The notes under the pieces were generated by a model that saw only the letters and a list, made by a program, of their open reading frames with translations, was not told the DNA's origin and did no database searches. Positions 24,359 through 40,139 of a stretch of 64,000 nucleotides of DNA are shown in pieces. A program made the position numbers and the translations under genes. How positions within the stretch are numbered: the stretch's first letter is position 1; each line of letters begins with the position of its first letter. Location: assembly GCA_016208765.1 (NCBI GenBank), contig JACQXK010000085.1, positions 4,814 through 68,813 of the forward strand, read 5' to 3'. The stretch comes from Candidatus Omnitrophota bacterium (GTDB taxonomy: Bacteria > Omnitrophota > Gorgyraeia > Gygaellales > Profunditerraquicolaceae).

Positions 24359-25078
24359 ATGAAATACATTTACGGCCCGGTAAAATCCAGGCGTTTAGGC
24401 ATGTCTTTGGGCATAAGCTTAACCCCTCATAAAATCTGCAGCCTGGATTGTGTTTATTGCCAGCTGGGGAAAACCAGTGTTTTAACCTCAAGGCGCAAAG
24501 AATATATTAAGATTGTTGATATTCTTGAAGAGATAAAGCTGTGGCTTGAGAATAATTGCGGCGATGCCAGGAAGCTGCAATTTGTTACCCTTTCCGGGGC
24601 AGGGGAACCTTCATTAAATATCGGGATCGGGAAACTGATTTCAGGGATTAAGAAACTGACAGGTTTGAGTGTGGCAGTAATTACTAATGCCTCGTTACTT
24701 TCTAATGAGAGACTCAGGAAAGATTTATTAGCGGCTGATTTAATTGTGCCTTCTTTGGATGCGGTTAGCCAGGGAATTTTTGAAAAGATTGACCGTCCGG
24801 TAAAAGGCATCAGGGCCAAAGATATTGTTAATGGTTTAATTAAACTCAGGAAAGAATTCCCTGGGAAAATTTGGCTTGAGGTAATGATTGTTAAGGGGAT
24901 TAATGACAGTTTAGAGGAAATCAGGAAAATTAAAGCAGCAGCAGATAAAATTGGCCCTGATTTAATCCAGATTAATTCTCCTGTGCGCACAACTACTGAA
25001 AAGAATGTATTTTCAGTTTCTAAAGAGACGCTAAAAAAAATTAAAGAGATTTTTGGCGATAAGGCCAAGATTATTTGA
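24359..25078 (+). CDS. Radical SAM protein (CxxxCxYC at CSLDCVYC; YGPVKSRRLGMSLGI N-terminus)
   Basis: Canonical radical-SAM cysteine triad near N-terminus; about 239 aa. Confidence 0.65.
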   Translation: MKYIYGPVKSRRLGMSLGISLTPHKICSLDCVYCQLGKTSVLTSRRKEYIKIVDILEEIKLWLENNCGDARKLQFVTLSGAGEPSLNIGIGKLISGIKKLTGLSVAVITNASLLSNERLRKDLLAADLIVPSLDAVSQGIFEKIDRPVKGIRAKDIVNGLIKLRKEFPGKIWLEVMIVKGINDSLEEIRKIKAAADKIGPDLIQINSPVRTTTEKNVFSVSKETLKKIKEIFGDKAKII

Positions 25079-25079: not shown

Positions 25080-25122
25080 GCGCCCATGGCCCAATGGATA
25101 GGGCACCAGTCTTCGGAACTGG
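25080..25122 (+). tRNA. Truncated tRNA-Arg (anticodon UCG): acceptor 5' strand, D arm and anticodon arm present, no T arm / 3' acceptor
   Basis: gcgccca-tg-gccc-aatggata-gggc-a-ccagt-cTTCGga-actgg folds as tRNA positions 1-43; downstream sequence has no T-stem/loop. Abuts the integrase gene. Confidence 0.55.
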
Positions 25123-25193
25123 GGACTATCTATACTAACTTGTTGATAATGTTATAGTTAAGTTTCTATGTGTGAATAAAACTGTGAATGAAA

Positions 25194-26207
25194 TCAAAAT
25201 CTCAATTTATTTACTGCTACTTTTATATGTTCTTTACTAAGGTGGCTATAAATCATCGTGGTTGTAATTGAAGAGTGCCCTAAAAGATCTTTCACGGTGT
25301 TTAAATCTACTCCATTCATAACTAAATGAGAAGCGAAGGTGTGTCTTAGTGTATGCCAACCAATACCCATTAATTTCCCTATTTTCAGGATCCTTTTGAA
25401 TACCCGTCTTTGATTGGTGGTGTCAAAACAAGGCCCTTTTTCCTTGCGTAGAGGAACCAAGATAGATCTAAGCTTATCATGTAAGGGTATTACCCTGAAT
25501 TTCTTTGATTTAGTGGTAAAACCCTCTTTATTCTTTACGGTGATCTGTTTTCGTGTGAAATCTACATCTGACCATTCCAAGCTGAATAGTTCCGCTTGGC
25601 GCATACCGGTATATATAGCAGTGGCAATAACTGGATATAAGACAGTATCCCTGTCTGTATAAATATCAGGGTTCTGCGCAGCAGTAAGTAATTCTTCTAT
25701 TTCTTCTCTGCTTAAAAATCTTTTTGGGTTTAATGGTATCTTATACTTTTTTACATTTCGTAGTGGATTATCAGTGACGTATTGCATTTTAACGGCCCAG
25801 TTAAGCCAAGCCTTAAGATTTATGATTGTGTTGTTTGCTTCATAAAGGCTGATTTTGTCGTTATTTATCCTATGGTTTAGATATTCCTGCAATTTGTTTT
25901 CAGAAATTCTATTAACAGTGAGAGTTGCCGCCCAAGACAAGAATCTTTTTATACGAGATTCTGTGCCAAGATTAACATCTCTTACACGGCGATGTTCATT
26001 GAATTGTTGATATTCTTCAAGAAGAGAAGAACAGTTTCTTTGATTATCTGGGGCAATGTTATTGCCTTCAATTAACGATTGATCTTGTTTATTCTTGAGA
26101 TATATAGCTTGTGAGCGGTCTTTAGTTTTTAAACTCCTGCGATAAAGCTTTCCATTCTTATAAAAAGCAAGCCAGTATATTTGATCGCGACGATATAAAT
26201 GTGACAT
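25194..26207 (-). CDS. int: Tyrosine site-specific integrase
   Basis: C-terminal catalytic motifs HTLRHTFASHLV...LLGHSSITTTMIYSHL (R..HxxR..Y). Confidence 0.9.
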   Translation of the reverse strand: MSHLYRRDQIYWLAFYKNGKLYRRSLKTKDRSQAIYLKNKQDQSLIEGNNIAPDNQRNCSSLLEEYQQFNEHRRVRDVNLGTESRIKRFLSWAATLTVNRISENKLQEYLNHRINNDKISLYEANNTIINLKAWLNWAVKMQYVTDNPLRNVKKYKIPLNPKRFLSREEIEELLTAAQNPDIYTDRDTVLYPVIATAIYTGMRQAELFSLEWSDVDFTRKQITVKNKEGFTTKSKKFRVIPLHDKLRSILVPLRKEKGPCFDTTNQRRVFKRILKIGKLMGIGWHTLRHTFASHLVMNGVDLNTVKDLLGHSSITTTMIYSHLSKEHIKVAVNKLRF

Positions 26208-26208: not shown

Positions 26209-26907
26209 TTAACAAAGTTTGTCTATAATCTTATCAAAGATATTTTTTGCTGCATTAGGCGACGATGGTATTACTCCTATTGGCAGAGTTTCTTTTTCTT
26301 GGCCAATAGAAACCCCGATTATAAGGTGGCGGTCTATCGTCTTTACATATTTCCAGTTTGAATCAACCCGGGGATTAACTGTTTCAGGGAATAGATCTAA
26401 TACTTTTAATATGACAATAGTGTTAAATGCCGGACAAAAGCGGAATTTATGTGTATTGGCCAGAAGGTAGTGTTTTATACGTTCCTTGTCAAAGATAAAT
26501 GTGCCGTCAAGGTCAAAGTGGCCATAGCAAAGCCATTCTGTGTCACTTGATAGTGGCATCATCGTCTGTATGCAGCGCCAAGGGTTAAATGCTGGGTATT
26601 GCCGCGCATCTCCGTGGCAGTATTGAACAGGATCGTGTGATAATTTGCGCAGAGCATAGCAGTTACAATAATGAAACACTTCATCCCAAGGCATTTCTTT
26701 TCCATCAATAAATACATACTTGTTGCGGAAACCTTTAAGAAATTGAGACATGCGGTAAGATTGGTCTGATTCTTCCCGGGTAAAAGTAACTGAATAGATA
26801 TCTTTTGAATGATTAAAAGTTTTATGTTTTTGTGCCTCAAGAAGAATAAATCTGAAGCGCGGAGAAGTAGATTGATAGAACTCTATAGTTAAGGTACGGT
26901 AGGGCAT
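26209..26907 (-). CDS. Cys/His-rich hypothetical protein (int-proximal cargo)
   Basis: 232 aa; no recognisable family; translationally coupled to upstream lipoprotein gene. Confidence 0.5.
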   Translation of the reverse strand: MPYRTLTIEFYQSTSPRFRFILLEAQKHKTFNHSKDIYSVTFTREESDQSYRMSQFLKGFRNKYVFIDGKEMPWDEVFHYCNCYALRKLSHDPVQYCHGDARQYPAFNPWRCIQTMMPLSSDTEWLCYGHFDLDGTFIFDKERIKHYLLANTHKFRFCPAFNTIVILKVLDLFPETVNPRVDSNWKYVKTIDRHLIIGVSIGQEKETLPIGVIPSSPNAAKNIFDKIIDKLC

Positions 26908-27389
26908 TTTACTTCTGTGAATTTGATTTCTTCTATCCAGATGTTTTTTATTCCATTAGATTCTAATGTAAAATATAGCTTTCCGGATTTTTCTAAATTT
27001 GACGGTTTAGGAGGAATCATCCAAGCAGTATTGTCTGCAATTCTCTCTGGAATCAAAACTTCTGCGAATTTTGATTTAGGGGGAATTGGCATAAAGGGCT
27101 GCTGCATATCTGAATGTATCTTTTTTGCCTGTCCTCTTATTAACCTTTGAGTGATACCTTCAGTTGTGACATAACTGGATTCATCTAATAAAAATTTAAC
27201 CATATTGTCAGTATTGTTTTGTATAATTACAGTCCATGCTGATCCAATTGGCACTAAGGTTATGCTTATGCCATTTATTTTCTGTAAAGTGGTAAAATTC
27301 TCATTATAAATAGGGCCTTGATATCCCCTGTATTGAGGAGTAACACATCCGGACAATATAAGCATAAGTAGCAAAACTGTTTTTTTCAT
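26889..27389 (-). CDS. Lipoprotein (lipobox LILSGC), int-proximal cargo
   Basis: MKKTVLLLMLILSGC signal/lipobox; start at Met preceded by aaaggaagg RBS. Confidence 0.55.
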   Translation of the reverse strand: MKKTVLLLMLILSGCVTPQYRGYQGPIYNENFTTLQKINGISITLVPIGSAWTVIIQNNTDNMVKFLLDESSYVTTEGITQRLIRGQAKKIHSDMQQPFMPIPPKSKFAEVLIPERIADNTAWMIPPKPSNLEKSGKLYFTLESNGIKNIWIEEIKFTEVKCPTVP

Positions 27390-28015
27390 ACCTTCCTTTT
27401 TATTTCTGTTATTTTGAAACAACGGCATTCGTTCTTGCCTGATAAAGTTATTATATCATGTTTATCGTTTAACGGGACAAGATGAATGTTATTGTTAGAG
27501 TGCTTGATTTTTTTAACTGTAACGCCTTTACCGTCTTTACGGCAGAAAATCAAATCCCCGTCATTTATTTGCTTAGAGGGTTCTACAAGCAGCAAATCCC
27601 CATCAAATATTGTGCGTCTATCATCAGCCCGGCCAGTCATGCTATCGCCATGCGCACGGACATAAAAAGCATTAGCGTCTTTACTGTTTGTTGGTTCGTT
27701 TTCCGGGTAGTGTCCTACAGGATAGCTACCGTCACTCCAGTCAATAAACTTACCGCATGAGGCGTCAAATACAGGAATTAAGCGTTGATCAGGTTTTACA
27801 TAAACAGGTGGGGTTATACCATAAAGTTCATTTAAAGATATCCCAAAGATATCACAGAGCTTTTGACGCTGGGTAGGATTGGGGCCGTTTAATTCGGTTT
27901 CCCATGCAGATATGGCAGAAGGTCTTTTAAGACCCAATTTTAAAGCCAATTCTTTTTGGCTCCAGTTCTTTTCTTCACGCAACTGTTTTATACGTTGTCC
28001 TATGGTCATAAGCAT
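27386..28015 (-). CDS. cI: CI-like repressor: XRE HTH + S24 (LexA-like) self-cleaving peptidase domain
   Basis: N-terminal HTH (QKELALKLGLKRPSAISAWE), C-terminal GDSM ... K S24 motifs. Confidence 0.8.
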   Translation of the reverse strand: MLMTIGQRIKQLREEKNWSQKELALKLGLKRPSAISAWETELNGPNPTQRQKLCDIFGISLNELYGITPPVYVKPDQRLIPVFDASCGKFIDWSDGSYPVGHYPENEPTNSKDANAFYVRAHGDSMTGRADDRRTIFDGDLLLVEPSKQINDGDLIFCRKDGKGVTVKKIKHSNNNIHLVPLNDKHDIITLSGKNECRCFKITEIKRKV

Positions 28016-28020
28016 TTTAT

Positions 28021-28239
28021 ATCACAAAATCTGTCAACCACCAAAGAAAATAATCACAGTAAATCTGTCTTTGAATAATATATTTCTCGTCGGTGTGATA
28101 AAATATGATAACTTAGTAAATAAAATCTGTGAGAAAAATACTTGACAAATACAGGAAATCTGTCATACTTTGACTAAGGTTGAAAGGAGCTATTTTTTTA
28201 AACTCAAATGTCAGAAAATCTGTCAAAGGAGAATAATCC
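28021..28239. promoter_or_regulatory. Immunity-region operator/promoter cluster: 5 copies of AAATCTGT(C/G)A between divergent cI and cro; TTGACA-16-CATACT promoter
   Basis: Repeats at 28027, 28071, 28123, 28155, 28216; -35 ttgaca 28142-28147; aaggag RBS 28226-28231. Confidence 0.6.
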
Positions 28240-28482
28240 ATGGGAATGATTAGGTTAAAGGAAGAAGTGATAAAAAACTGGCTGAAAAACAAAACCACGC
28301 CACCGCGCACCATTGAGGAGCTTGCTGAGTTAATGAAAATTGAGCCGAGTTTATTGTACATGATTTTTAGCGATGACCGCCAAGTTACTCCTAATGTTTT
28401 GCGCCGATTATGTGAAGTCACTGGTTACGATGTCGGTGACCTTTGTTTTTACGATCGCAATAAAGAGGAGAAAGATTCTTAA
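28240..28482 (+). CDS. cro: Cro-like small HTH regulator
   Basis: 80 aa, divergent from cI, HTH-like segment TIEELAELMKIEPSLLYMIF. Confidence 0.55.
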   Translation: MGMIRLKEEVIKNWLKNKTTPPRTIEELAELMKIEPSLLYMIFSDDRQVTPNVLRRLCEVTGYDVGDLCFYDRNKEEKDS

Positions 28483-28531
28483 TTACATTATAACAGTTTT
28501 ATTTGTTTTTGTGCGGAATGGAGGGGGATAG

Positions 28532-28927
28532 ATGTCGGGAAAGCAAAGTTTAAGAAACGAACTCATAGAAGAAATTATGGAAGCGGTTTCAATTCAGGAT
28601 AACTTCTCGGCTGATGTAGAAAAAATTATTAATGATATTGATTTAAACGAACAGCTTGATCACGAAAACGACAAAATCCGCAACGATGCAATGCGTTTTT
28701 TTCTTAACGCATTGGAAGCATACAACGCCAAAGACTATGAAGGTATGCAAAAGTTTACCCACGCCGGAGTGCAAAAGCTCCATGAACAGGCAGAGGTTGA
28801 TTTTAAGGATGACAAACCAAGAGTCAATCTGCGCATAAAATTATCGGAGCTTAGTTTTAAAACCATAGAAAACAAAAAACAACTAACTCGTTTAATTGCA
28901 AGCATGAGGGGAGGCAAAAAGAGATGA
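28532..28927 (+). CDS. Hypothetical phage early protein
   Basis: ORF with RBS (ggaggggga) upstream; no family recognised. Confidence 0.5.
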   Translation: MSGKQSLRNELIEEIMEAVSIQDNFSADVEKIINDIDLNEQLDHENDKIRNDAMRFFLNALEAYNAKDYEGMQKFTHAGVQKLHEQAEVDFKDDKPRVNLRIKLSELSFKTIENKKQLTRLIASMRGGKKR

Positions 28928-29106
28928 CTCCCGAAATAGTTACTTTGCATGAAGCAGCAGAAATCCTAAGAATCAGCAAACATACAGCCTATAGAAGGTG
29001 GCACGAGTGGCGTGATTATGGCGTCCGGGTGCTTAAGATGCGGGCAAATGCCACTCCAAGGTTCTATCTTTCAGACCTGCTTAAGATGATGGAGGTGCAA
29101 AAATGA
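28924..29106 (+). CDS. Small HTH DNA-binding protein (excisionase/AlpA-like)
   Basis: LHEAAEILRISKHTAYRRW helix-turn-helix. Confidence 0.45.
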   Translation: MTPEIVTLHEAAEILRISKHTAYRRWHEWRDYGVRVLKMRANATPRFYLSDLLKMMEVQK

Positions 29107-29564
29107 GTTACGAACATTTGCAGAATTTAAGCCAATGGAGAAAAACACAACACGAAGAACATAACTTGGTAATTACACTTGTTTTGGCCATAAGTATCTT
29201 GGCAATTTTGATGGTTATATTTTTGGATTTAGCACATGCGCAGACATTAACTGCGTCTTGGTATAGCGTTGCATCGTGTAAGAGGGAGGGAACTTGGCAG
29301 AAATACGGAGGGAGGATGGCAAATGGGCAAATATTTAATGATAACGCTCTTACCTGTGCTTCTTGGGATTACAAGTTTGGTACTCGTCTTTTGGTTAAGA
29401 ATATTGACAATGGCAAAAAAGTTGTTGTCATTGTCACAGATAGGGGGCCGAGCAAAAAACTTGCCAAAAAAGGAAGAATCATTGATTTATCCAAAGGGGC
29501 ATTTAGTAAGATTTCTAATCTTAAATCGGGCATTATATCAATTGAAATAGAGGTATTAAGCTGA
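29103..29564 (+). CDS. Membrane-anchored RlpA-like double-psi beta-barrel (DPBB) protein
   Basis: TASWYSVASCKREGTWQKYGGRMANGQIFNDNALTCA...VVVIVTDRGPSKK...GRIIDLSKGAF closely follows the RlpA/3D DPBB signature; N-terminal TM helix. Confidence 0.6.
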   Translation: MSYEHLQNLSQWRKTQHEEHNLVITLVLAISILAILMVIFLDLAHAQTLTASWYSVASCKREGTWQKYGGRMANGQIFNDNALTCASWDYKFGTRLLVKNIDNGKKVVVIVTDRGPSKKLAKKGRIIDLSKGAFSKISNLKSGIISIEIEVLS

Positions 29565-29800
29565 TGAATTTTTGGGTTCCGCGGCATAGATATGAGTTAT
29601 TAAACTGGATATTGGGAGTATATCCGCAAGAAAAAAGCAAATTTAAGTGCATGAAAACAAATCAACTTTACGCAATCTATTACAAGTTAAGAAAGGACAA
29701 TATCTCGCTTGTTGGCGGCCATAACGAGGCTGGTGAGCCGGACGCATGGTGCGGCGGTAGGTCTAACGACACGACGCCGCAGATATCTAAATTTATATGA
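29564..29800 (+). CDS. Hypothetical protein
   Basis: ORF only. Confidence 0.35.
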   Translation: MNFWVPRHRYELLNWILGVYPQEKSKFKCMKTNQLYAIYYKLRKDNISLVGGHNEAGEPDAWCGGRSNDTTPQISKFI

Positions 29801-31218
29801 AACCGTTATTTAAGCATCAAAAAGAAGCTTTAGATTTTATCGTTTCAAATAATGGATTTGGGGCATTGTTTCATGAAGTGGGATGCGGGAAAACAAGGAC
29901 TGCTCTTGAGATATTTAGTCATTACAAAAGATTAGATCCTGAGCTTAAACTTTTTGTTATTTGTCCATTGTCCCTTATTAACTCTGCATGGGGAGAGGAC
30001 ATAAAGCAGTTTACCTGTTTTAATTATCGCAATTGTCATGACGAAACGATTGAGCTGCGCAAAGATACTGATATTTATATTATAAACTTTGAATCATTGA
30101 TAAGCGAAAACAAAATCAAACAACTTCATAAGATGATTAATTTCTCGAAAGTAATGTGTGTTATTGACGAATCTTCAAAGATGAAAAACCATAAAGCAAG
30201 GACGACAAAAACCCTGTTGTCACTTAGGAATTACTTCAATTTTCGCATAATTATGTCAGGAACTCCGGCGCCTAACTGCGAGACAGAATACTGGGCCCAG
30301 ATTAATTTTATTAAGCCCGGAATCGTGCATGAGAAGTTTTATCCATTTAGATATTTTTACTTTCATCTTGAGAGAGAGCGTAATGGCAAGCAAGAATTTA
30401 CTTCCGGCCAAATTTACAGCAAGCTTGCGGCGCAACAGATCTTTCAGCGCGGTTGGCATTACGATATAACTACGCAGAAAAGACAGTTGCTTATGGATAA
30501 AATCTCGCCATATTGCCATTATGCGCGCAAGGCTGAGTGTTTGGATTTACCGGAGCAAATGGATGAAGTCAGATTAGTTGATATGGGTAAAAAACAAGCA
30601 TCTGTTTATAACTCCATGAAACGTGACTTAATTGCTGAGATTCAAAATTCTTTTGTAGTGGCGCAAGTAGCTTTGGCAAAAATTATGAAATTGCGGCAGA
30701 TAACTTCCGGGTTTGCGATAGACGAATCCGGAGAAACTATAATTATTGGAGAAAATCCTAAATTACAGGAGCTAAAAGATGTATTGGAGGAGGCAGGAAA
30801 ACAGCAGGTCATTATATGGTGCCAGTTTCAACACGAGATTAGACAGATTAAAGATTTATTGGGAGATAAGGCTGTTACTCTTTACGGTGAAACTAAAGAT
30901 AAAGATGATTCAATTACGGCGTTTAAGAATGGAAGCGCGCAGTACCTTATTGCGCATCCTAAAAGCGCCGGGCACGGATTGACATTTGTGAATTGCAGTT
31001 TACAGGTGTTTTATAGCCTTGATTATTCATGGGAGTTATATGAACAGGCGCGCGGCCGGATCCACAGAGCCGGGCAGGTCAACAAATGCACTTATGTTCA
31101 CTTGCTTTGTAAGGGGACTATTGACGAAGAGATTCTTAATGTCTTGCGTAATAAAAAAGACGCAACGGAGATATTGTATAGGATGGTGCAAGGAAATTTA
31201 GCGGAGGTAGGGAAGTGA
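29797..31218 (+). CDS. SNF2/DEAD-like helicase
   Basis: Walker A EVGCGKT, DExx VIDESSKMKN, C-terminal helicase motifs (HPKSAGHGLTF, ARGRIHRAGQ). Confidence 0.8.
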   Translation: MKPLFKHQKEALDFIVSNNGFGALFHEVGCGKTRTALEIFSHYKRLDPELKLFVICPLSLINSAWGEDIKQFTCFNYRNCHDETIELRKDTDIYIINFESLISENKIKQLHKMINFSKVMCVIDESSKMKNHKARTTKTLLSLRNYFNFRIIMSGTPAPNCETEYWAQINFIKPGIVHEKFYPFRYFYFHLERERNGKQEFTSGQIYSKLAAQQIFQRGWHYDITTQKRQLLMDKISPYCHYARKAECLDLPEQMDEVRLVDMGKKQASVYNSMKRDLIAEIQNSFVVAQVALAKIMKLRQITSGFAIDESGETIIIGENPKLQELKDVLEEAGKQQVIIWCQFQHEIRQIKDLLGDKAVTLYGETKDKDDSITAFKNGSAQYLIAHPKSAGHGLTFVNCSLQVFYSLDYSWELYEQARGRIHRAGQVNKCTYVHLLCKGTIDEEILNVLRNKKDATEILYRMVQGNLAEVGK

Positions 31219-32057
31219 AGGCAGAAAAAGATATAAACACTTTAATTAAATCCACTCAAAACGAAGACGATAATTTTATTTCTTCTCTAGACGAGCATGT
31301 TGAAACAATTTTTAAGGTAGAACCTCCACTTATGCAAATCAAAGAAGGAAAGGGCTTTGGATTTATGGGTGTTATGCTACGCAATACAGTGGAAGATAAA
31401 CTTCAATGCCATATTTGCGGTGTATGGAGAAAAGGTTTAAGTACTCATACTAATCAAGCACATCAGATATCGGCTGATGAATATAGGAAAAAATTTCAAT
31501 TACCATTAACTTTTCCTTTGGTGTCTTTATCTACATCACAAAAACACTCTGATAGGGCAAATACTAAGAAAAACTTAGATCATCTCAATAAAGTGCGGAA
31601 TATTGAAAAACTTAATAATGTTTCCAGAAAAAAAAGACAGCGTTTTATGAGATATGCAAGAAATAATCTCGCTTTTCAAAATCAAAGAGCACTTTGTGAA
31701 GAACAGTTAGAGAGAAGATTTCTAATCGTTGCGGACATAGTCGGGAAAGAACCATCACAAATAGATTTAATTAAATATGATTGTAGTTTATGGGGGGCTA
31801 TCCGAAGACGATTTGGAACAATTAATGAATTTAGAAGAAAAAATAATTATGAAATCAAAAAAAGAGCAAAGGTGTTTAGCGATGAAAAGTTACTTTCTTG
31901 CATAATTAAATTTTACCATCAACATAAAATTATTCCGCGGCCAAGTCATTTTAAAGGCACTAAACCCAATATTGAAACTTTTCGTAATCACTTCGGCTCA
32001 TGGAACCGTGCTTTAAGTCTATGCGGATTTGACAAAATCGCGGAGGTGAAAAGATGA
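31215..32057 (+). CDS. Protein with MucR/Ros-type zinc-finger DNA-binding motif
   Basis: LQCHICGVWRKGLSTHTNQAHQISADEYRKKFQLPLTFPLV resembles the Ros/MucR C2H2 consensus (C.ICG..K.L..H....H.....EYR.K..LP). Confidence 0.45.
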   Translation: MKAEKDINTLIKSTQNEDDNFISSLDEHVETIFKVEPPLMQIKEGKGFGFMGVMLRNTVEDKLQCHICGVWRKGLSTHTNQAHQISADEYRKKFQLPLTFPLVSLSTSQKHSDRANTKKNLDHLNKVRNIEKLNNVSRKKRQRFMRYARNNLAFQNQRALCEEQLERRFLIVADIVGKEPSQIDLIKYDCSLWGAIRRRFGTINEFRRKNNYEIKKRAKVFSDEKLLSCIIKFYHQHKIIPRPSHFKGTKPNIETFRNHFGSWNRALSLCGFDKIAEVKR

Positions 32058-32211
32058 AGTTGTTTTGTTGGTTTGGGATTCATTTTTATAGATTAGAACA
32101 TAATTTTGGAGGGAATCATTATTGCGAATGCAAATTTTGCCATAAACGCATTGTTGAATCTTCACCCGAAGGAAATCAACATATAAATCATAGATGGATG
32201 AGAGGAGATAG

Positions 32212-32523
32212 TTGGGTATGACCGAGACATCACTTAAAAACAATGTCTTAAAGATGATCCGTGATGAATTTCCGGACATTTGGTTCTACAAAACACACGA
32301 TTTATGCACAAGTGGCATTCCAGATATTTTAATGTGTCAAGATGGTCATTTGTGCGCGGTAGAGTTAAAACGCCCCGGATACGACTACACAAAATCTAAG
32401 GGTTGGAAATTACAAAAACACATTATTGATAGGATTAACGCTTGCGGAGGAAAAGCCACAGTATGCACAAGCGTTGATGAAGTAAGAAAATTCTTAAAAA
32501 AGGAGGTGAGGCGCAATGGATGA
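32212..32523 (+). CDS. VRR-NUC domain nuclease
   Basis: GIPDILMCQDGHLCAVELKRPGY...LQKHII matches the VRR-NUC PD-(D/E)xK pattern. Confidence 0.65.
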   Translation: MGMTETSLKNNVLKMIRDEFPDIWFYKTHDLCTSGIPDILMCQDGHLCAVELKRPGYDYTKSKGWKLQKHIIDRINACGGKATVCTSVDEVRKFLKKEVRRNG

Positions 32524-32911
32524 ACGGGAAATGCTCGTCAAATATATTGATGCGCGAGATAAACTAAACAAGTTAAAAGAAGAGCTTACAGAGGCACAGA
32601 AAATATTTGATGAAGAGGAAAGCCGTTTAGTTACCATGCTCATAGACAAAGAGGCTACTTCTACCGCCCGATATGAAGGCGTAGGGTTTGCCACTCTTAC
32701 AAAGCCGAGATTGTTCGCCTCGTATTCTAAGGAATACGAACAAGATGTTTTTCAGTTTGTAGAGAAATCAGGAGAAAGAGAGCTGATGAAAATTTCAATA
32801 CATCCTTCTTTTTTGTCGGGATTTGTGAGCAGGTTAATTGAGGACGGCAAAGTAGTGCCCGAGTTTGTTCGGTATTACATGAAACAGGGCGTAAGATTTT
32901 ACGATAAATAG
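32516..32911 (+). CDS. Hypothetical coiled-coil protein
   Basis: ORF only. Confidence 0.4.
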   Translation: MDEREMLVKYIDARDKLNKLKEELTEAQKIFDEEESRLVTMLIDKEATSTARYEGVGFATLTKPRLFASYSKEYEQDVFQFVEKSGERELMKISIHPSFLSGFVSRLIEDGKVVPEFVRYYMKQGVRFYDK

Positions 32912-32944
32912 AGGCCTTGGAGGCCTAAACAAGGAGGAATACAA

Positions 32945-33658
32945 ATGAAACACAAAAAAGAAATAGTAACAAAAAAAGAAAGTGTATTAATGGCCGCAGC
33001 ACCGGGACGCGGGTTTGAAGAGCCAACGGAAAAAGAGGATTTGTTAATTCCGCGCGCGAAGCTTTTGCAGGCATTATCTCCTGAAGTTGTGGAGAGTCCA
33101 AAGGATTTCCAACCGGGGTTGATTATTAATTCTCTTACAAAAGAAGTGCTTCCGGAGGAAATCGTTCCTATTTTCAAGTTCACAAATTGGATTCGCTTTA
33201 ACCCGCGTAAAAAAGATGATCCAAATTTTGACCCTGCATTTGACCCGGGTGCGATTATTTGGAGAAGCTCAGATCCTTTGGATTCTAAGGTTATCAAGGA
33301 AAGTGAATTTGGCCCGAACGGAGAACGTCCAATCGCTACCAAGTTTATGAATTTCTTTTGTTTATTTCCCGGGCATCCGATACCTGTGATATTGAGTTTC
33401 TCGTCTACTTCGTTTAAGGCAGGGAAAAAGCTTATTACGCTGGCCAAGTTCGCAGGTGGAGACATGTTCAGCCGTAAATATAAGCTAATAGCCAAGCACG
33501 TTAAAAATGATATGGGAGCTTATTACGTTCTTGATGTTGATCCTGCTGGCATGACAGATGAGAGTTACTATAAGGCCGCAGAATCGCTGTATAGCCAGTT
33601 TAAAGAAAAAGCAAAAGACATACAGGTTCACGAAGAAATACAGGAAACAGAAGAGTAA
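32945..33658 (+). CDS. Hypothetical replication-module protein
   Basis: ORF with strong RBS (aaggagga); family not recognised. Confidence 0.45.
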   Translation: MKHKKEIVTKKESVLMAAAPGRGFEEPTEKEDLLIPRAKLLQALSPEVVESPKDFQPGLIINSLTKEVLPEEIVPIFKFTNWIRFNPRKKDDPNFDPAFDPGAIIWRSSDPLDSKVIKESEFGPNGERPIATKFMNFFCLFPGHPIPVILSFSSTSFKAGKKLITLAKFAGGDMFSRKYKLIAKHVKNDMGAYYVLDVDPAGMTDESYYKAAESLYSQFKEKAKDIQVHEEIQETEE

Positions 33659-33767
33659 TCTCTCCACGCGAAGGATCCCCCTTCAAGAGAGCAGTCAAGG
33701 CGTTCCTGTAAAGAGCCGCCACTTAAACAATTAACCGTAACGTTTTTATATAGATTAAGGAAGAAAC

Positions 33768-36248
33768 ATGAATACTATCTACGAATTTATTACCACGCGC
33801 GGCAAACTTACCGATTTACACAGACAAGAGTTAAAGACAAAAAGAGGTTTCACAGACGAAACGATTGATAAATTCAGGTTTTTCTCTGGCGGTAAATACT
33901 TAATTGATTTGGAGCAGGAGATTATCAATAATTTTGACAAAGAATCACTTGTTTCAATGGGTGTATGTATTGATTCAGGGAAAAGCTTAACTATTACGCC
34001 GATACTTTTAGAAGAGCGCATCATAATTCCCTACCTGAACTCCACAAGAAAAGCTTATTTATTAAGGCCGCATAAGTTAGGATTGTCAGGTGTGCCTGTT
34101 GAAATTTATTGTCCGGATTGGAATATAGCAAACAATATTGTCATGACCGAAGGAGAGTTCAAGGCTGTAGCAAGCGCACAGCTGGGGATCCCGGCTATTG
34201 CCATTCCGGGAATCGGTTCATTTTCAAAAGAGCATTTCCAAAGATTAGTCAAATTTCTTAATGATGCGAAAGTAAGAGATGTTTGTATTGTCTTTGATAA
34301 TGAGATTAAAGATGATCCGCGATTAAGTAATTATAAGGAAAATCCCTCAGATCGCTACGATACGCAGTTTTATGCTCATCTTATGGCACGACAGCTCGAC
34401 AGTGAGGGTTTCCGGGCCCAAGTGGGGACATTGCCTGACTCTTGGCGCGTCCACGGTAAAGCTGATATTGACGGGGCGTTGGCGCAGGGGAAAACCCGGG
34501 ATGATTTAGGAATGGTGATTACTTCTTCTCTCCCGGCAAAAAAATATGTTGAGGGATTGCCAAAAGAAGCGCAGACAGTCATCCGCCGCAAAATGAGCTT
34601 GAAGTATTTTCGCTCACATATACGTAAAGAGTTCGGGAAATATGTGGCCACAAGGCGCAAGGGCAAGACAGAGTGGGATGAAGAGATCTCTAACTTCACC
34701 ATGAAGATAATTGCGACACACGACACATTTGAGGGATTAGTCCGTGAGATACAATTCACTAATGAATTTGGGGATCATTCATCCTTTTATGCAATCAAGC
34801 CCGAGGATATGGGGGGAGCAGAAGGGTTCACAAAGTTTTGTTTTACTCATGGTAGTTTTGTTTGGCGCGGATACAAAGATGACCTGCTTAATATTTGGGA
34901 AGGATTGTTTTTAGAGGACGATGGCAGGCATATCATTGAGCCGGATCATATCGGATGGATTGAGTCAGAGAGTATGTGGGTATTTGGGAATATGGCAATT
35001 GATAAGGACGGAAAAGAGTTGCGGCCTGATAGGAATCACATCTTTTGGCTTGAGAAGAAAGGTATTAAGCCGGTGGCTTTGGGAGTTACATCAGGCAAGA
35101 TGCAGATTTCAGAGGGGATCCCTTATGTATCGTTTTCGCCTTGTGATATTAAAGAAATCCGGACAAAGTTAGCGGATACTATCGGTGACATAGAGGCTGT
35201 GAAATGCCTCGGGTGGGCTTCGGCCATACCTTACTTGGAGGATATATTTGATGCGTACGGTTGCTATCCATTTTTATTTATCACCGGCAGAACTGGCTCA
35301 GGCAAATCAACAATTGCGGAGTGGATCACCTGTTTATTTGGTATTGAAGATGCTGGAAAAAGCATCTCACAAACGACAGTTGTCGCGATCCAAAGGTCGC
35401 TGGGTTATTATTCGAGCTTGCCCGTATTCCTTGATGAGTTTAGGAACACTTCGGATATCACCTACAAAACAGGTTTCCTGCGCAATGTTTACAATCGCCA
35501 ATCTTCCGGCAAGGGGATCAAAGCAAACTTTGGCATTCGGGAGGCGAAAGTTCGCGGTACGATCATTATCGCGGGGGAAGAAACGCCTAACGACAACGCG
35601 ATCCTGAATCGCAGTATATTGGTTGAAATAGTTAAGAAGAACCGTAAGACCAACCACTATGACTGGTTTACCCGTAACAAAGCTAAATTCTCGCATCATA
35701 TACTGGAAATCATTAAGAACAAATCCCGGGACAAAGAACTCTTTATGCGCGTGCTTAGTGAAGCAAAAGATTATCTCACAAAACATGCCGGTGTAGATGA
35801 CCGGACAGCGGTTAATCATGCGGTGTTGTGTGCCGGGCATGCAATTACCTTTGGAGAGAAAGACCTTGATTTCGCGGATATGATTATCCAGGAGGCCCAA
35901 AAGACTAATACCGAGTACCAGAAGGATAACATGATGCATACATTCTTTTCTGATCTACAAGTTATGGCGCATAAGGGGGAGCTTAAAGATAACTATTGGG
36001 CAATTGAGGAAGGTAAGATTTATCTATATTTTGAGGCACTCTATAATGTCTGGTCAGCTGATGCCAGAAAACGCGGGATTGAGCCTTTTAAGCCTTCTTC
36101 GGTGCGCGGATATTTTAAAGAGGAGCCAGGGTTCATAGACATGTCCGCAAGGATGCGTATTAACGGTTACCAGCGCAGATGTATTGTTTTAGATTATGAG
36201 CTTTGCGGTGATCATGTTAAAGAGTTGGTGGAGGTAAAAATTGGATAG
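33768..36248 (+). CDS. DnaG-like (TOPRIM) primase fused to D5/SF3-type helicase (P-loop GRTGSGKST)
   Basis: TOPRIM-like EGEFKA...DNEIKDD; Walker A FITGRTGSGKSTIAEW; 826 aa. Confidence 0.75.
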   Translation: MNTIYEFITTRGKLTDLHRQELKTKRGFTDETIDKFRFFSGGKYLIDLEQEIINNFDKESLVSMGVCIDSGKSLTITPILLEERIIIPYLNSTRKAYLLRPHKLGLSGVPVEIYCPDWNIANNIVMTEGEFKAVASAQLGIPAIAIPGIGSFSKEHFQRLVKFLNDAKVRDVCIVFDNEIKDDPRLSNYKENPSDRYDTQFYAHLMARQLDSEGFRAQVGTLPDSWRVHGKADIDGALAQGKTRDDLGMVITSSLPAKKYVEGLPKEAQTVIRRKMSLKYFRSHIRKEFGKYVATRRKGKTEWDEEISNFTMKIIATHDTFEGLVREIQFTNEFGDHSSFYAIKPEDMGGAEGFTKFCFTHGSFVWRGYKDDLLNIWEGLFLEDDGRHIIEPDHIGWIESESMWVFGNMAIDKDGKELRPDRNHIFWLEKKGIKPVALGVTSGKMQISEGIPYVSFSPCDIKEIRTKLADTIGDIEAVKCLGWASAIPYLEDIFDAYGCYPFLFITGRTGSGKSTIAEWITCLFGIEDAGKSISQTTVVAIQRSLGYYSSLPVFLDEFRNTSDITYKTGFLRNVYNRQSSGKGIKANFGIREAKVRGTIIIAGEETPNDNAILNRSILVEIVKKNRKTNHYDWFTRNKAKFSHHILEIIKNKSRDKELFMRVLSEAKDYLTKHAGVDDRTAVNHAVLCAGHAITFGEKDLDFADMIIQEAQKTNTEYQKDNMMHTFFSDLQVMAHKGELKDNYWAIEEGKIYLYFEALYNVWSADARKRGIEPFKPSSVRGYFKEEPGFIDMSARMRINGYQRRCIVLDYELCGDHVKELVEVKIG

Positions 36249-36249
36249 A

Positions 36250-36535
36250 TTTTGTGACAGTGTGACAGTTTGTGACAGTGCTCTTTTTTTGAAGTGTCAC
36301 AGCGTAAGTTGTTTAAAGACATATAGTTATGAGGTTTTGTGACAGTGTGACAGCATTTTTGCATTTTTTTACGTACAGGTTATTTTTTGCAGGTTTGAAG
36401 AAACAAGAATTAAACACGTACGTAAACATATAGTTTTGGAAAACACTGTCACAGGTGTCACAAATGACGTAAGTCCTTTATTTTCTAAGTGACAGTGAGG
36501 TGTCACAGTTGTGACAGTGTGACAGTTTAAAACAA
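36250..36535. repeat. Iteron-type origin: 12 or more copies of GTGACAG / CTGTCAC heptamers in four clusters, AT-rich spacers, ACGTACGT palindromes
   Basis: Heptamers at 36254, 36262, 36272, 36295, 36339, 36347, 36446, 36456, 36489, 36500, 36510, 36518; immediately downstream of primase-helicase. Confidence 0.7.
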
Positions 36536-36544
36536 GGAGGAAGC

Positions 36545-36850
36545 ATGTTTGAGCATAAAGTAGCGGAAAAGGCAACACAGGACACTCAGTTGTCAGATTT
36601 CGTGGACTTATACAGCAGGTTCACACAAGACGCGCTTAAGGTGTCTGAGATTATTAATCAAAATAGGGCCACAAAACAGGATCGCTTTCGCATGCGGCAA
36701 TTTGAGGCTAAAATAGATGCAGAGTGGCGCAAAATCCCGGAAGTTAAGCGTAGTATGTTGGTAGAGCTTCTTTTGGTCAAGAAACTGCTCCCTGAGGCAG
36801 TAAAGCGGGCAATTCAGGTGTTTGAGGGAAAGGTGGTGAAGGTGGTATGA
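36545..36850 (+). CDS. Hypothetical protein
   Basis: ORF with aaggagg RBS. Confidence 0.5.
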   Translation: MFEHKVAEKATQDTQLSDFVDLYSRFTQDALKVSEIINQNRATKQDRFRMRQFEAKIDAEWRKIPEVKRSMLVELLLVKKLLPEAVKRAIQVFEGKVVKVV

Positions 36851-37074
36851 ATATTAATGAGATTATTGCTGATTCATTGTCTATAAATCCAGAAAAGGTA
36901 ACATGCGAATCAAGATTTATAGAAGATCTTGGAGCAGATTCTTTGGACTTAATAGTATTAACCATGAGATTAGAGGAAGAGTTTAACATTAGGATATCTG
37001 ATGAAGAAGCGAGGGATATTCTAAGTGTAAACCAGTTGATAAAGTTTATTGAGGATAAAACAAATGTTCATTGA
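36847..37074 (+). CDS. Acyl carrier protein-like (phosphopantetheine site DLGADSLD)
   Basis: 75 aa, EDLGADSLDLIVLTMRLEEEFNIRISDEEA matches the ACP helix II and serine attachment motif. Confidence 0.65.
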   Translation: MNINEIIADSLSINPEKVTCESRFIEDLGADSLDLIVLTMRLEEEFNIRISDEEARDILSVNQLIKFIEDKTNVH

Positions 37075-37179
37075 TTCAATGATCCGCGGTATCGGATTTG
37101 GCATAGGATTAATAATTGTTATGGTTCTGTTGGCGGTTTTAGTATATGGAATTGAATTTTTGTTTAGAAAGGAGGCTTT

Positions 37180-37464
37180 GTGAAAGAAATATTGTTAATT
37201 ATATGCTTGCTTATTGGTGGTTGCCAAACAACCCCATTGGTCAATAAAGAATCACCAGTTAAAGAAAAAAAACCCGCAAGAATAGAAACTATCAGAAACG
37301 TTAAACATGAAAAATTTGACGCACAGGAAGACTTTGAAAAAGGATGGAATAAAGGATATCAAGAGGCCCTTAATGACATGGGAGATTTTGATTTAATAAT
37401 GTGGGAAGGACAGGAATATATTACAGTTAAAGCCTTAAAGGTTAAATATGAAAAACTCCAATGA
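37180..37464 (+). CDS. Small lipoprotein (lipobox LIGGC)
   Basis: MKEILLIICLLIGGCQT. Confidence 0.5.
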   Translation: MKEILLIICLLIGGCQTTPLVNKESPVKEKKPARIETIRNVKHEKFDAQEDFEKGWNKGYQEALNDMGDFDLIMWEGQEYITVKALKVKYEKLQ

Positions 37465-37572
37465 TTTATTATTAATAATTTTGCTGTTAATTTGGTTTGC
37501 AATGGGTTTTATCAGTGCAATAGTTTTGTTACCTTGTGAATCTAAGCAATCAAAATGTGAGGCTTGTAATCC

Positions 37573-37842
37573 ATGAGTTGGATTTTAGTTGCTTTGTCCT
37601 TATTCGGCGTAGTGCTTAATATATATAAAAGAAAGGAGTGTTTCTATATTTGGGGCATAACAAATGCCGGATGGGCCATATATGACTTTATGATAGGCGC
37701 CGTGGCTCAAGGAGCGCTGTTTAGTGTTTACTTTGTGTTGGCTATCTGGGGGATCTGGAAATGGGGTAATGGTAAAGGGTGGATTGAGAAGCTCTGGAAA
37801 CGACATATTTGTGACAAGTATCCTTATGAGGAGGAGATGTGA
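37573..37842 (+). CDS. Small membrane protein (2 TM)
   Basis: Hydrophobic segments; ORF only. Confidence 0.4.
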   Translation: MSWILVALSLFGVVLNIYKRKECFYIWGITNAGWAIYDFMIGAVAQGALFSVYFVLAIWGIWKWGNGKGWIEKLWKRHICDKYPYEEEM

Positions 37843-38782: not shown

Positions 38783-38867
38783 ATAATAAAATAATTGATT
38801 TAACTGAAAATGATCGGTTTGAAAAACTTCCCGACGGTTGGATAAGGGATTACAAGGAAGGTAAAGA

Positions 38868-40008: not shown

Positions 40009-40090
40009 ATATATCGTTATTTTAATGACAACAACAGATTTTCTGTTATAAACTTAAATTGAGGGCGACGGCTCTCATAAGTTCCATTAA

Positions 40091-40125: not shown

Positions 40126-40139
40126 ATTAAAATCATTAT

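What the first reader, a model, noticed from the sequence alone, without database searches (positions are those of the whole stretch)
25080..25200. tRNA-Arg(UCG) truncated after the anticodon arm, abutting the integrase: prophage attL junction
Positions 1-43 of a tRNA-Arg fold perfectly, but no T arm or 3' acceptor strand follows. The integrase stop lies 71 bp away. Either the 3' part lies at the distal prophage end beyond this window, or the tRNA is inactivated by the insertion; the element carries no replacement 3' half at this junction.
Basis: seen in the sequence. Interest (0 to 1): 0.55.

Follow-up and report, generated by a model that had tools for sequence, protein, structure and literature searches.

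The report
Prophage junction splitting a tRNA-Arg gene
The left end of a prophage sits inside a host tRNA-Arg gene, and relatives of its integrase carry the front (5') part of a tRNA in their attachment sites instead of the usual back (3') part, a rare reversed arrangement, although the far junction of this prophage could not be seen.

Summary
Window 25080-25122 is positions 1-43 of the host tRNA-Arg(UCG) gene. Similarity to intact orthologues stops exactly at the end of the anticodon stem. No T arm or acceptor 3' strand exists anywhere in the window. The integrase stop codon lies 71 nt away.

The host is a Candidatus Omnitrophota bacterium with conserved gene order: radical-SAM gene, tRNA-Arg(UCG), tRNA-Lys(CUU), archease, RtcB. 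From 25123 to beyond 64000 lies a siphovirus-like prophage, so this is its integrase-proximal junction (attL). Three independent assemblies show the same junction.

The polarity is reversed. Normally the phage supplies a tRNA 3' end and an intact gene sits next to int. Seven related integrases (36-65% identity) also sit next to a tRNA 5' portion that starts at position 1. Four of these are attP sites in phage genomes, flanked by arm-type repeats.

The best reading is a rare 5'-side attachment site. The host 5' half is orphaned here, and a gene is rebuilt at the unseen attR from a phage-borne 5' half. That last step is inferred. Assembly-graph hints suggest an identity block of 30 nt or less, so splitting without repair is not excluded. 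This is a new member of a known but rare kind.

The parts
24359..25078 (+). Host radical-SAM gene (239 aa). Its stop codon ends 1 nt before tRNA position 1.
   Evidence: Pfam PF04055. The order radical SAM then tRNA-Arg(TCG) is conserved in about 50 Omnitrophota genomes. The upstream LpxC/FabZ-LpxA-LpxI-CBM48 block is shared with L154 and L002.
25080..25122 (+). Orphan 5' part (positions 1-43) of the host tRNA-Arg(UCG) gene: acceptor 5' strand, D arm and anticodon arm.
   Evidence: It matches the L007 orthologue at 40 of 43 positions, and similarity ends at position 43.
25107..25122 (+). Probable core or crossover region, CAGTCTTCGGAACTGG (tRNA positions 28-43, the anticodon stem-loop). Inferred, not shown.
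   Evidence: In relatives the tRNA piece ends just after the anticodon loop. Logan contig L149 ends exactly at 25107, while L002 and L148 run through the fragment unbroken.
25123..25193 (.). Phage P' arm, 71 nt between the tRNA piece and the integrase stop codon.
   Evidence: The length is conserved in relatives: 71, 73, 74, 73 and 60 nt.
25171..25189 (+). Pair of TGTGAAT repeats with 12-nt spacing, abutting the int stop codon. Candidate arm-type integrase-binding sites.
   Evidence: The same pair sits at the same position in L154, L150 and L152, and in variant form in L003, L189 and L192. [quoted passage not shown]
25194..26207 (-). Tyrosine integrase (337 aa), transcribed towards the tRNA fragment.
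   Evidence: Pfam PF00589 at 1.8e-30 plus SAM-like N-terminal domains. Catalytic R203, K233, HxxR, H311 and Y320 are invariant in 8 relatives. There are 1034 homologues at E<=1e-20.
26209..27428 (-). Two ORFs (232 and 179 aa) of unknown function upstream of int on the same strand.
   Evidence: No family hit in Pfam or NCBIfam. A 231-aa ORF occupies the same position in L154, and the identical gene is in L148.
27386..28015 (-). CI/LexA-like repressor (HTH plus S24 peptidase).
   Evidence: Pfam PF01381 and PF00717.
28016..64000 (+). Body of the prophage: SNF2 helicase 29797, primase 33768, large terminase 40510, portal 42090, capsid 48699, tape measure 57850, Dit 60110, Mtd-like fibre 62054, tail fibre 63255 onwards. 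It runs off the window.
   Evidence: A phage with the same late-gene order (L194) has about 5.2 kb more after the Mtd-like gene, so attR is expected roughly 3-5 kb beyond base 64000.

Best explanation
This is the integrase-proximal junction (attL, B-O-P') of a siphovirus-like prophage, more than 39 kb long, that inserted into the host tRNA-Arg(UCG) gene at its anticodon stem-loop. The tyrosine integrase belongs to a clade of Omnitrophota phage integrases whose attachment sites have reversed polarity: attP carries the 5' portion of a tRNA gene, not the 3' portion.

Integration leaves the host's own 5' half (positions 1-43) stranded behind the radical-SAM gene, 71 nt from the int stop codon. At the far junction (attR, beyond the window) a phage-borne 5' half is predicted to be fused to the host 3' half, giving a full-length gene that must be transcribed from phage DNA.

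Shown: the truncation, the host origin of the left flank, the prophage, an apparently active integrase, and tRNA 5' portions in the attP sites of relatives.

Inferred: that this particular phage carries a 5' half, that the rebuilt gene works, and that the TGTGAAT pairs are arm-type integrase-binding sites.
For: (1) Truncation at position 43, with no 3' half in the window.

(2) The left flank is host DNA. The order radical SAM then tRNA-Arg(TCG) then tRNA-Lys(CTT) is conserved in about 50 Omnitrophota genomes, and the tRNA often starts a few nt after the stop codon.

(3) The right flank is a prophage with an integrase, a CI-like repressor and replication, head and tail modules. The integrase has all catalytic residues.

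(4) The junction appears in three independent assemblies.

(5) Related attP sites in phage genomes, with tail genes on one side and int on the other:
- L152 (61% identity): tRNA-Arg(ACG) positions 1-40.
- L004: tRNA-Ser(GCT) positions 1-39.
- L003 (53%): positions 1-21.
- L005: tRNA-Gly(TCC) positions 1-42.
- L150 (65%): a whole chimeric tRNA-Arg(ACG).
Each starts at tRNA position 1 and is flanked on both sides by arm-type repeats.

(6) L154 (58%) is an integrated relative at the same host locus. It leaves tRNA-Lys(CTT) positions 1-41 73 nt from its int stop. L189 and L190 (63%) show tRNA-Arg(ACG) up to position 40, 74 nt from the stop.

(7) None of the 8 elements has a canonical 3'-only piece, whereas phage D3 (30% identity) has the canonical 3' piece 4 nt from its int stop.

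(8) Host lineage scars show the predicted end state. In L007 a 103-nt repeat (leader plus tRNA-Lys positions 1-38) occurs as an orphan 1.09 kb upstream of the intact gene. L014 has an equivalent repeat for tRNA-Arg positions 1-16.

(9) The literature describes 5'-side tRNA integration as real but rare (PMC6563490 section 7; PMC8371274 section 18).
Against: attR and attP of this phage were never seen.

Logan contigs L002 and L148 cross the 43-nt fragment without a break. In a k=31 graph (my knowledge of how Logan was built) this means no other sequence of similar coverage shares a 31-mer with it. L149 ends 16 nt into the fragment. Any phage-borne 5' half must therefore differ in sequence from the host's, or the shared core is only about 16 nt and nothing is rebuilt.

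No convincing sigma-70-like promoter was found upstream of the phage-borne tRNA piece in L152. The relatives are 36-65% identical, and their tRNA targets differ.
Confidence: 0.65

Rival explanations
1. The tRNA is split without repair. The phage shares only a short core (about 16-17 nt, the anticodon stem-loop) with the tRNA, so integration destroys tRNA-Arg(UCG). The loss is either tolerated because other tRNA-Arg species read CGA and CGG, or complemented by a phage-encoded tRNA in the unseen right end (tRNA-dependent lysogeny), or reversed only on excision.
For: L002 and L148 cross the fragment unbroken, and L149 stops exactly at tRNA position 28. This is compatible with an identity block of about 16 nt. 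tRNA-dependent lysogeny, with a core of about 10 bp, has been demonstrated in mycobacteriophages (PMC10865867). L150 shows that members of this clade can carry a whole tRNA gene at attP.
Against: All five attP sites recovered from relatives carry the full 5' part from position 1, not a bare core. No tRNA gene is present in the 39 kb of prophage that is visible. A single mismatch around position 27 in a phage-borne 5' half would explain the assembly-graph observations equally well. L149's end could also be a coverage gap, since its other end falls at an unremarkable place.
Confidence: 0.27
2. This is not an active integration junction. It is a decayed pseudo-tRNA left by an old deletion or rearrangement that happens to lie next to a prophage, or an assembly artefact.
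For: The tRNA-Arg/tRNA-Lys locus of related genomes is full of tRNA debris, including orphan 5' and 3' pieces and small palindromic inserts.
Against: The fragment is undecayed: 40 of 43 positions match orthologues and both stems are perfect. It starts at the ancestral position, 1 nt after the radical-SAM stop codon. Its boundary lies the conserved 71-74 nt from the int stop, as in four relatives. The integrase and prophage look intact. Three assemblies agree on the junction.
Confidence: 0.05
3. This is a split or intron-containing tRNA whose 3' half is supplied in trans or after a very long intervening sequence and joined at the RNA level. RtcB ligase and archease are encoded at this locus in relatives.
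For: RtcB and archease follow tRNA-Lys in all relatives. Some relatives have tRNA-Arg genes interrupted in the anticodon loop.
Against: The break is after position 43, not at a known intron position. The intervening DNA is a complete prophage with an integrase 71 nt away. No 3' half or complementary leader occurs in the window. No intron family was found in the related inserts.
Confidence: 0.02

Closest known systems
[quoted passage not shown] Known to me only by its title and through citing papers; the paper itself is not held.
   Same: A tyrosine-integrase element recombines with the 5' region of a tRNA gene rather than the 3' region. PMC6563490 section 7 cites this as 'considerably less frequent'.
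   Different: I could not read the paper, so its details cannot be compared. Here the pattern is seen across a whole clade of Omnitrophota phage integrases with at least five different tRNA targets, and with paired arm-type repeats on both arms.
pTN3-like / TKV4 integrases of Thermococcales (archaea)
   Same: attB is the 5' half of a tRNA gene. An uninterrupted gene is rebuilt and expressed from element DNA (PMC8371274 section 18). L005 and L006 have the matching geometry, with the tRNA piece co-directional with and downstream of int.
   Different: Those are SSV-type 'suicidal' integrases whose att site lies inside the int ORF, so int is split on integration. Here int is intact and att lies 71 nt downstream of it. 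In the window the tRNA piece converges on int, so the int promoter cannot drive the rebuilt gene.
Pseudomonas phage D3 integrase and attP (the closest integrase in deposited phage genomes, 30% identity)
   Same: The same protein family, and the same convergent arrangement of the tRNA-derived att sequence and the 3' end of int.
   Different: D3's annotated attP is the 3' end of a tRNA (T arm, acceptor and CCA) 4 nt from the int stop, which is the canonical polarity. The window's clade carries the 5' end about 72 nt from the stop.
tRNA-dependent lysogeny (mycobacteriophages Fionnbharth and Cluster L; PMC10865867)
   Same: Integration into a tRNA gene that is not rebuilt at the integrase-proximal junction.
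   Different: That system has a common core of about 10 bp and a separate phage tRNA gene of the same isotype. No tRNA gene is seen in the visible 39 kb, and relatives' attP sites carry long 5' tRNA portions.
Lambda-type heterobivalent integrase and att architecture
   Same: The int gene is next to attL. Repeated short motifs on both arms (TGTGAAT pairs) flank a core that coincides with a stem-loop-stem, as Campbell and Williams noted for anticodon-loop sites (PMC8371274 section 18).
   Different: Binding of the repeats by the integrase is inferred from position and conservation only. No arm-binding domain family was detected in the N-terminus.

Membership tests
Tyrosine recombinase / phage integrase family | Catalytic domain with the R-K-HxxR-H-Y residues | tested here: met
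   PF00589 at E=1.8e-30. R203, K233, R288/H289, H311 and Y320 are invariant in an 8-sequence alignment. The closest solved structures are XerC-like, HP1 integrase and XerA.
Tyrosine recombinase / phage integrase family | Core-binding SAM-like N-terminal domain | tested here: met
   PF13102 at 7e-05, above its cut-off, and PF13495 at 0.0026, below its cut-off.
Canonical tRNA-targeting prophage (3'-side att site) | attP carries the 3' part of the tRNA, so the junction next to the host 5' part holds an intact gene | tested here: not met
   No T arm or acceptor 3' strand follows position 43. The attP sites of relatives carry 5' parts. Phage D3, by contrast, meets this feature.
Reversed (5'-side) tRNA integration | An orphan host 5' tRNA fragment at one prophage junction | tested here: met
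   25080-25122, preceded by syntenic host genes and followed by phage DNA. L154 shows the same.
Reversed (5'-side) tRNA integration | attP contains the tRNA 5' portion from position 1 to the crossover | not testable with these tools
   The attP of this phage could not be retrieved. The feature is met in the relatives L152, L003, L004 and L005, and L150 carries a whole tRNA.
Reversed (5'-side) tRNA integration | A full-length tRNA gene rebuilt at the other junction | not testable with these tools
   attR lies beyond the window. Indirect support comes from scars in L007 and L014, where an orphan 5' copy lies upstream of an intact gene that shares the duplicated 5' block.
Reversed (5'-side) tRNA integration | A promoter for the rebuilt gene supplied by the element | tested here: inconclusive
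   The consensus scan found no site upstream of the L152 tRNA piece. TATAAT boxes follow the P-arm repeats in L003, L150 and L152, and the duplicated leader in L007 contains TGGTATAAA. None of this was tested statistically.
tRNA-dependent lysogeny | A short (about 10 bp) common core, so the tRNA is not rebuilt | tested here: inconclusive
   Contig-end patterns suggest an identity block of 30 nt or less, possibly 16 nt. They cannot separate a bare core from a divergent 5' half.
tRNA-dependent lysogeny | A phage-encoded tRNA of the same isotype | tested here: inconclusive
   None is present in prophage bases 25123-64000. The last roughly 3-5 kb of the prophage is unseen.
SSV / pTN3-type 'suicidal' integrases | The att site lies inside the integrase ORF, which is split by integration | tested here: not met
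   The int ORF is complete at 337 aa, colinear with relatives, and the att site lies 71 nt downstream of it.

The most novel reading that the evidence does not exclude
The prophage splits tRNA-Arg(UCG) using only a core of about 16 nt (the anticodon stem-loop) and does not rebuild it. The lysogen would then live without this tRNA, or depend on a phage-supplied copy, and would regain the gene only on excision. That would be a tRNA-level 'regulated gene integrity' switch, or tRNA-dependent lysogency outside the actinobacteriophages. In the same process the insertion would cut tRNA-Lys, archease and RtcB off from any upstream host transcription.
Probability: 0.25. Interest if true: 0.6.

Novelty: new member of a known kind. 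Interest (0 to 1): 0.4.

Why it matters
Prophage-finding and att-site-mapping tools, and the textbook rule, assume that a phage brings the 3' end of its target tRNA and that an intact tRNA marks the integrase end. Phage_Finder's method is written that way (PMC1635311).

Here a clade of phage integrases from an uncultured phylum, with more than 1000 homologues in public data, appears to use the opposite half of the tRNA. Eight of the eight elements examined fit this pattern. Such prophages would be mis-delimited, or their truncated tRNAs read as pseudogenes.

Reversed polarity also means the phage, not the host, must supply the promoter of the rebuilt tRNA. That gives the prophage control over a host tRNA. 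In this locus it may also affect the downstream tRNA-Lys, archease and RtcB genes. The clade offers a set of natural integrases with different tRNA targets and a shared arm-site architecture, which could be useful for studying how att polarity and specificity evolve.

Tried and rejected
1. A hidden complete tRNA (non-canonical T arm, or an intron) was rejected. ARAGORN, Rfam and an explicit search of both strands for acceptor plus T arm found nothing.

2. A second copy of the junction or core inside the window: none.

3. Recovering the far junction failed by every route:
- Exact-protein look-ups gave only short Logan contigs.
- The metagenome scan with the truncated tail-fibre protein gave only partial domain hits.
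- The junction sequence and the tRNA 5' sequence are absent from viral contigs, apart from an unrelated intact tRNA array in L147.
- The tail-fibre protein is not in the protein database.
- The Mtd-like homologues on long contigs (L187, L188, L194) belong to phages with no integrase or different integrases.

4. A scan for the P-arm repeat signature TGTGAATAAANTGTGAAT in viral contigs returned 31 hits. Only one was real (L003's own contig); the rest were chance matches in AT-rich DNA.

5. I first took the orphan 5' tRNA-Arg pieces in L013, L040, L048 and L034 for scars of this phage type. I rejected that. They end at positions 36/37, are followed by conserved complementary arms and a fresh tRNA, and their 3' halves lie downstream. 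They are a different kind of insertion. None of the 80 host loci contains an integrase of this family.

6. Promoter scans upstream of the phage-borne tRNA pieces were inconclusive.

7. A diversity-generating retroelement linked to the Mtd-like protein: no reverse transcriptase was found among the large prophage ORFs.

8. Zhao & Williams 2002 and Williams 2002 are not held in the library.
Full report
**Observation.**
Window 25080-25122 (+) reads GCGCCCATGGCCCAATGGATAGGGCACCAGTCTTCGGAACTGG. It contains a 7-nt acceptor 5' strand, a D arm (GCCC/GGGC) and a complete anticodon arm (CCAGT-CTTCGGA-ACTGG) with anticodon TCG. ARAGORN finds no tRNA here; the only tRNA gene in the window is tRNA-Gln at 10555-10628. 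Rfam's tRNA model aligns only its positions 10-42, at 21.4 bits, below the family threshold of 29.

Pattern searches for a T loop plus the complementary acceptor strand gave nothing credible on either strand. This included an exhaustive scan for TGGGCGC (up to 1 mismatch) preceded by any 5-7-5 hairpin. No second copy of the junction sequence occurs in the window. The integrase ORF occupies 25194-26207 (-), so exactly 71 nt separate its stop codon from the fragment.

**Is the fragment a real tRNA?**
The gene to the left (24359-25078) is a radical-SAM enzyme. A scan of reference genomes with it returned 80 loci, mostly Candidatus Omnitrophota MAGs at 43-64% identity. In almost all of the 54 loci scanned, the gene is followed by an intact tRNA-Arg(TCG), often within 3-10 nt of the stop codon, and then by tRNA-Lys(CTT).

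The window's 43 nt match the orthologues L007, L008, L020 and L028; against L007 the match is 40 of 43 positions. Similarity stops precisely after ...GGAACTGG. Relatives continue with the variable loop, T arm and acceptor strand (CTATTGGTGGTTCGACTCCACTCGGGCGCG). The window continues GGACTATCTATAC.... Joining the window's 5' part to that 3' part, with the acceptor strand adjusted to pair, folds into a clean cloverleaf. The fragment is therefore the undecayed 5' part of the host's own gene, at its ancestral position.

**What lies to the right.**
From 25123 to the end of the window the genes are those of a temperate siphovirus-like phage:
- integrase
- two unknown ORFs
- a CI/LexA-like HTH-S24 repressor
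- a DPBB lytic transglycosylase-like protein
- an SNF2 helicase
- a MucR/HNH protein
- Pam3 gp34-like protein
- primase
- large terminase
- portal
- capsid
- a glycosylation cassette
- tape measure
- Dit
- an Mtd-like fibre
- a tail fibre that runs off the window

The integrase has the full tyrosine-recombinase catalytic set. The identical junction is present in Logan assemblies of three different runs: L002 from SRR12113402, L148 from SRR12113406 and L149 from SRR12113405. That excludes a chimeric assembly. The protein database places the window in an NCBI Candidatus Omnitrophica MAG, on a 71,507-nt contig with locus tags HY761_. The feature is therefore the int-proximal prophage junction, attL in lambda nomenclature.

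**The unusual point: polarity.**
The rule for tRNA-targeting elements is that attP carries the 3' part of the gene. The junction holding the host 5' part then shows an intact tRNA, and an orphan 3' piece lies at the other end (PMC1635311 section 7; PMC8371274 section 18). The closest integrases in deposited phage genomes, the Pseudomonas phage D3 group at 30% identity, follow that rule. D3's annotated attP, 4 nt after the int stop, is the reverse complement of GAGAGTTCGAGTCTCTCCGTCCGCACCA, which is a T arm, acceptor strand and CCA. The window has the same convergent tRNA-int geometry but the wrong half of the tRNA.

**Relatives show this is a property of the integrase clade.**
I recovered the region downstream of int for seven further elements. 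Distances are from the int stop to the 3' boundary of the tRNA piece; for the window itself the distance is 71 nt.

| Locus | Integrase identity | tRNA piece | Distance from int stop | State |
|---|---|---|---|---|
| L152 | 61% | tRNA-Arg(ACG) positions 1-40, then unrelated sequence | 752 nt (an extra NYN gene intervenes) | attP in a 39-kb phage contig; TGTGAAT pairs on both sides |
| L003 | 53% | positions 1-21 | 73 nt | attP |
| L004 | 36% | tRNA-Ser(GCT) positions 1-39 | 60 nt | attP |
| L005 | 39% | tRNA-Gly(TCC) positions 1-42, co-directional with int | 112 nt | attP-like (repeats on both sides) |
| L150/L151 | 65% | a whole tRNA-Arg(ACG), with two mismatches at the base of the acceptor stem (a chimera) | 97 nt | attP |
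| L154 | 58% | tRNA-Lys(CTT) positions 1-41; tRNA-Arg left intact | 73 nt | integrated, at the same host locus, in a 280-kb Omnitrophota contig |
| L189/L190 | 63% | tRNA-Arg(ACG), up to position 40 | 74 nt | not known (contigs end within the tRNA piece) |

In L003 and L004 the far side of the fragment encodes tape-measure, Dit, Mtd-like and LamG fibre proteins, so these are attP sites in phage genomes and not host junctions. Every one of these pieces starts at tRNA position 1, and none is a 3'-only piece. Four of the five measured spacings are within 3 nt of the window's 71 nt.

A pair of TGTGAAT motifs with 12-nt spacing abuts the int stop in the window (25171-25189), L150, L152 and L154, with variants in L003, L189 and L192. 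A second pair with 11-nt spacing lies about 100 nt upstream of the tRNA piece in the three attP sites of this subgroup. That is the layout of arm-type integrase sites on P' and P arms. Binding itself is inferred.

**Mechanism proposed.**
The attP is: P arm, tRNA 5' portion, core in the anticodon stem-loop, P' arm, then int. Recombination with the host tRNA gives two junctions. attL is the host upstream region, the host 5' half and the P' arm with int, which is what the window shows. attR is the P arm, the phage 5' half, the host 3' half and then tRNA-Lys.

The rebuilt gene is separated from the host promoter. That promoter must lie in or before the radical-SAM gene, because the tRNA starts 1 nt after its stop codon. 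The rebuilt gene therefore needs a promoter in the P arm.

Two scars in host relatives show the predicted end state:
- In L007 a 103-nt direct repeat (a 65-nt leader containing TGGTATAAA, plus tRNA-Lys positions 1-38) occurs twice, 1.09 kb apart. The left copy stops in the anticodon loop and has a D-stem mutation. The right copy continues as the intact gene.
- In L014, ATAATTATC plus tRNA-Arg positions 1-16 is duplicated about 150 nt upstream of the intact gene.

These scars cannot be tied to this integrase family, because no int remains.

**What remains uncertain.**
I never saw the attR or attP of this phage. A phage with the same late-gene order (L194) has about 5.2 kb after the Mtd-like gene, so attR should lie only 3-5 kb beyond the window.

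The Logan contigs give an indirect hint. This reasoning rests on my knowledge that Logan uses k=31.
- For L189 and L190 (two samples) and for L155, the contigs stop exactly 30 nt into the tRNA block. That is expected if another copy sharing at least 31 nt exists.
- For the window's phage, L002 and L148 cross the whole fragment unbroken, and L149 stops 16 nt in, at tRNA position 28.

The sequence shared between attL and any other junction is therefore 30 nt or less, perhaps only CAGTCTTCGGAACTGG. Either the phage's 5' half differs from the host's (one mismatch near position 27 would suffice, and L150 shows such chimeras exist), or there is no 5' half and the tRNA is simply split. The second case would resemble tRNA-dependent lysogeny (PMC10865867), but no phage tRNA gene is visible in 39 kb. 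I put about 0.65 on rebuilding and about 0.27 on splitting without repair.

**Comparison with known systems.**
Integration into the 5' region of tRNA genes is documented but rare. PMC6563490 section 7 calls it 'considerably less frequent', citing Zhao & Williams 2002 and several archaeal cases. PMC8371274 section 18 describes pTN3-like integrases whose attB is the 5' half, with the rebuilt gene expressed from the integrase promoter, and says this is seldom encountered in bacteria.

The window's integrase is not of the pTN3/SSV type, because its ORF is not split and att lies outside it. It also fails the defining feature of canonical 3'-side sites. It fits the reversed class on the one feature testable in the window (an orphan 5' fragment at a junction) and, through its relatives, on the attP feature. 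I therefore file it as a new member of a known, rare kind. The added observation is that a sizeable clade of Omnitrophota phage integrases appears to share the reversed polarity while targeting different tRNAs (Arg-UCG, Arg-ACG, Lys-CUU, Ser-GCU, Gly-UCC).

**Verdict.**
The feature is a genuine prophage attL with reversed tRNA polarity. Interest is moderate at 0.4. It is a useful correction to the 3'-end rule and to prophage-boundary tools, and a good test case for how att polarity evolves, but it is not a new kind of system. The decisive missing datum is a few kilobases of sequence beyond the window.

Noticed in passing
L040 10724-11237; also L013 10760-11270, L048 10726-10977, L034 10722-10882, L021, L024 (host relatives, not the window): tRNA-Arg(TCG) genes are interrupted between anticodon-loop positions 36 and 37. 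The insert consists of a left arm (AGTCCCTCGTTAAATT..GACTCGATCCCGAG), a complete and different tRNA-Arg(TCG), and a right arm (AATTTAACTCGGGATCCGCC..GGCGAGGGGC). The two arms are complementary to each other. In L040 the structure is nested two deep, and the matching acceptor strands of the outer halves (GCGCCTG/CAGGCGC and GTGCCTG/CAGGCAC) show that each event split one gene. It looks like a small mobile cassette that destroys the resident tRNA and brings its own. There is no Rfam group I intron hit. The arms were found in 6 of 80 loci and not in the window.
   Followed up: partly
L007 4614-4716 and 5805-5943: A 103-nt direct repeat (a 65-nt leader with TGGTATAAA, plus tRNA-Lys(CTT) positions 1-38) flanks 1.09 kb that holds only a 120-aa ORF. 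The left copy is an orphan with a D-stem mutation, and the right copy is the intact gene. This is a scar of a 5'-side integration whose element has decayed.
   Followed up: partly
L021, L026, L058, L007 (D loops); L013 11075-11140 and 11213-11245, L040 11100-11145 (T loops); L042 9672-9745 (anticodon loop): Small GC-rich palindromic inserts sit inside the loops of orphaned tRNA copies. Examples are CCTGCCTGCC..GGCAGGCAGG, TCCCGCC..GGCGGGA, CCCTTCGC..GCGAAGGG and TCCCGA..TCGGGA. They look like REP- or MITE-type elements with a preference for tRNA loops.
   Followed up: no
L007, L010, L014, L018, L020, L022, L028, L043, L045 downstream of tRNA-Lys: The tRNA-Arg(UCG) and tRNA-Lys(CUU) pair is followed in all relatives by archease and RtcB (the RNA 3'-phosphate ligase), then two more genes and a run of tRNA-Ser genes. 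A tRNA repair and ligation module sits next to a tRNA locus that is a hot spot for insertions. In the window's genome this block should lie just beyond attR.
   Followed up: partly
L150 1519-1592 (and L151 1468-1542): The attP of the closest relative with a visible attP (65% identical integrase) holds a whole tRNA-Arg(ACG). Its acceptor strands do not fully pair (5' GCGCCCA against 3' CAGGCGC, two mismatches). It appears to be a chimera of a phage 5' part and a captured 3' part.
   Followed up: partly
window 50610-55545: A glycosylation cassette lies between the capsid gene and the tail genes of the prophage: a polysaccharide pyruvyl transferase, a GT4/GT1 glycosyltransferase, a 196-aa ORF and a 798-aa protein with two GT2 domains. 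A distantly related phage (L188) has an 811-aa double-GT2 protein and a GT1 protein at the same place.
   Followed up: no
window 62054-62974 and 63255-64000: The tail protein has an Mtd second domain, the fold of the Bordetella phage tropism determinant. It is followed by a fibre gene at which the Logan contig L001 ends and which is absent from the protein database. No reverse transcriptase was found among the prophage ORFs scanned, so a diversity-generating retroelement is not supported.
   Followed up: partly
L024 11026-11065, L021 11178-11201, L055 4088-4145, L046, L051, L053, L054: Orphan 3' pieces of tRNA-Arg or tRNA-Lys lie just downstream of the intact genes. These are canonical 3'-side integration scars, so the same locus is used by elements of both polarities.
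   Followed up: no
L154 4191-4265; L152 11041-11592: The related prophage L154 carries a tRNA-Met(CAT) gene inside its replication module. L152 has a NYN-domain (RNase-like) gene inserted between int and attP.
   Followed up: no
window 38231-38782: The prophage encodes an Imm5-like putative immunity protein (PF21805, 1.6e-08) in the region between the primase and terminase genes.
   Followed up: no
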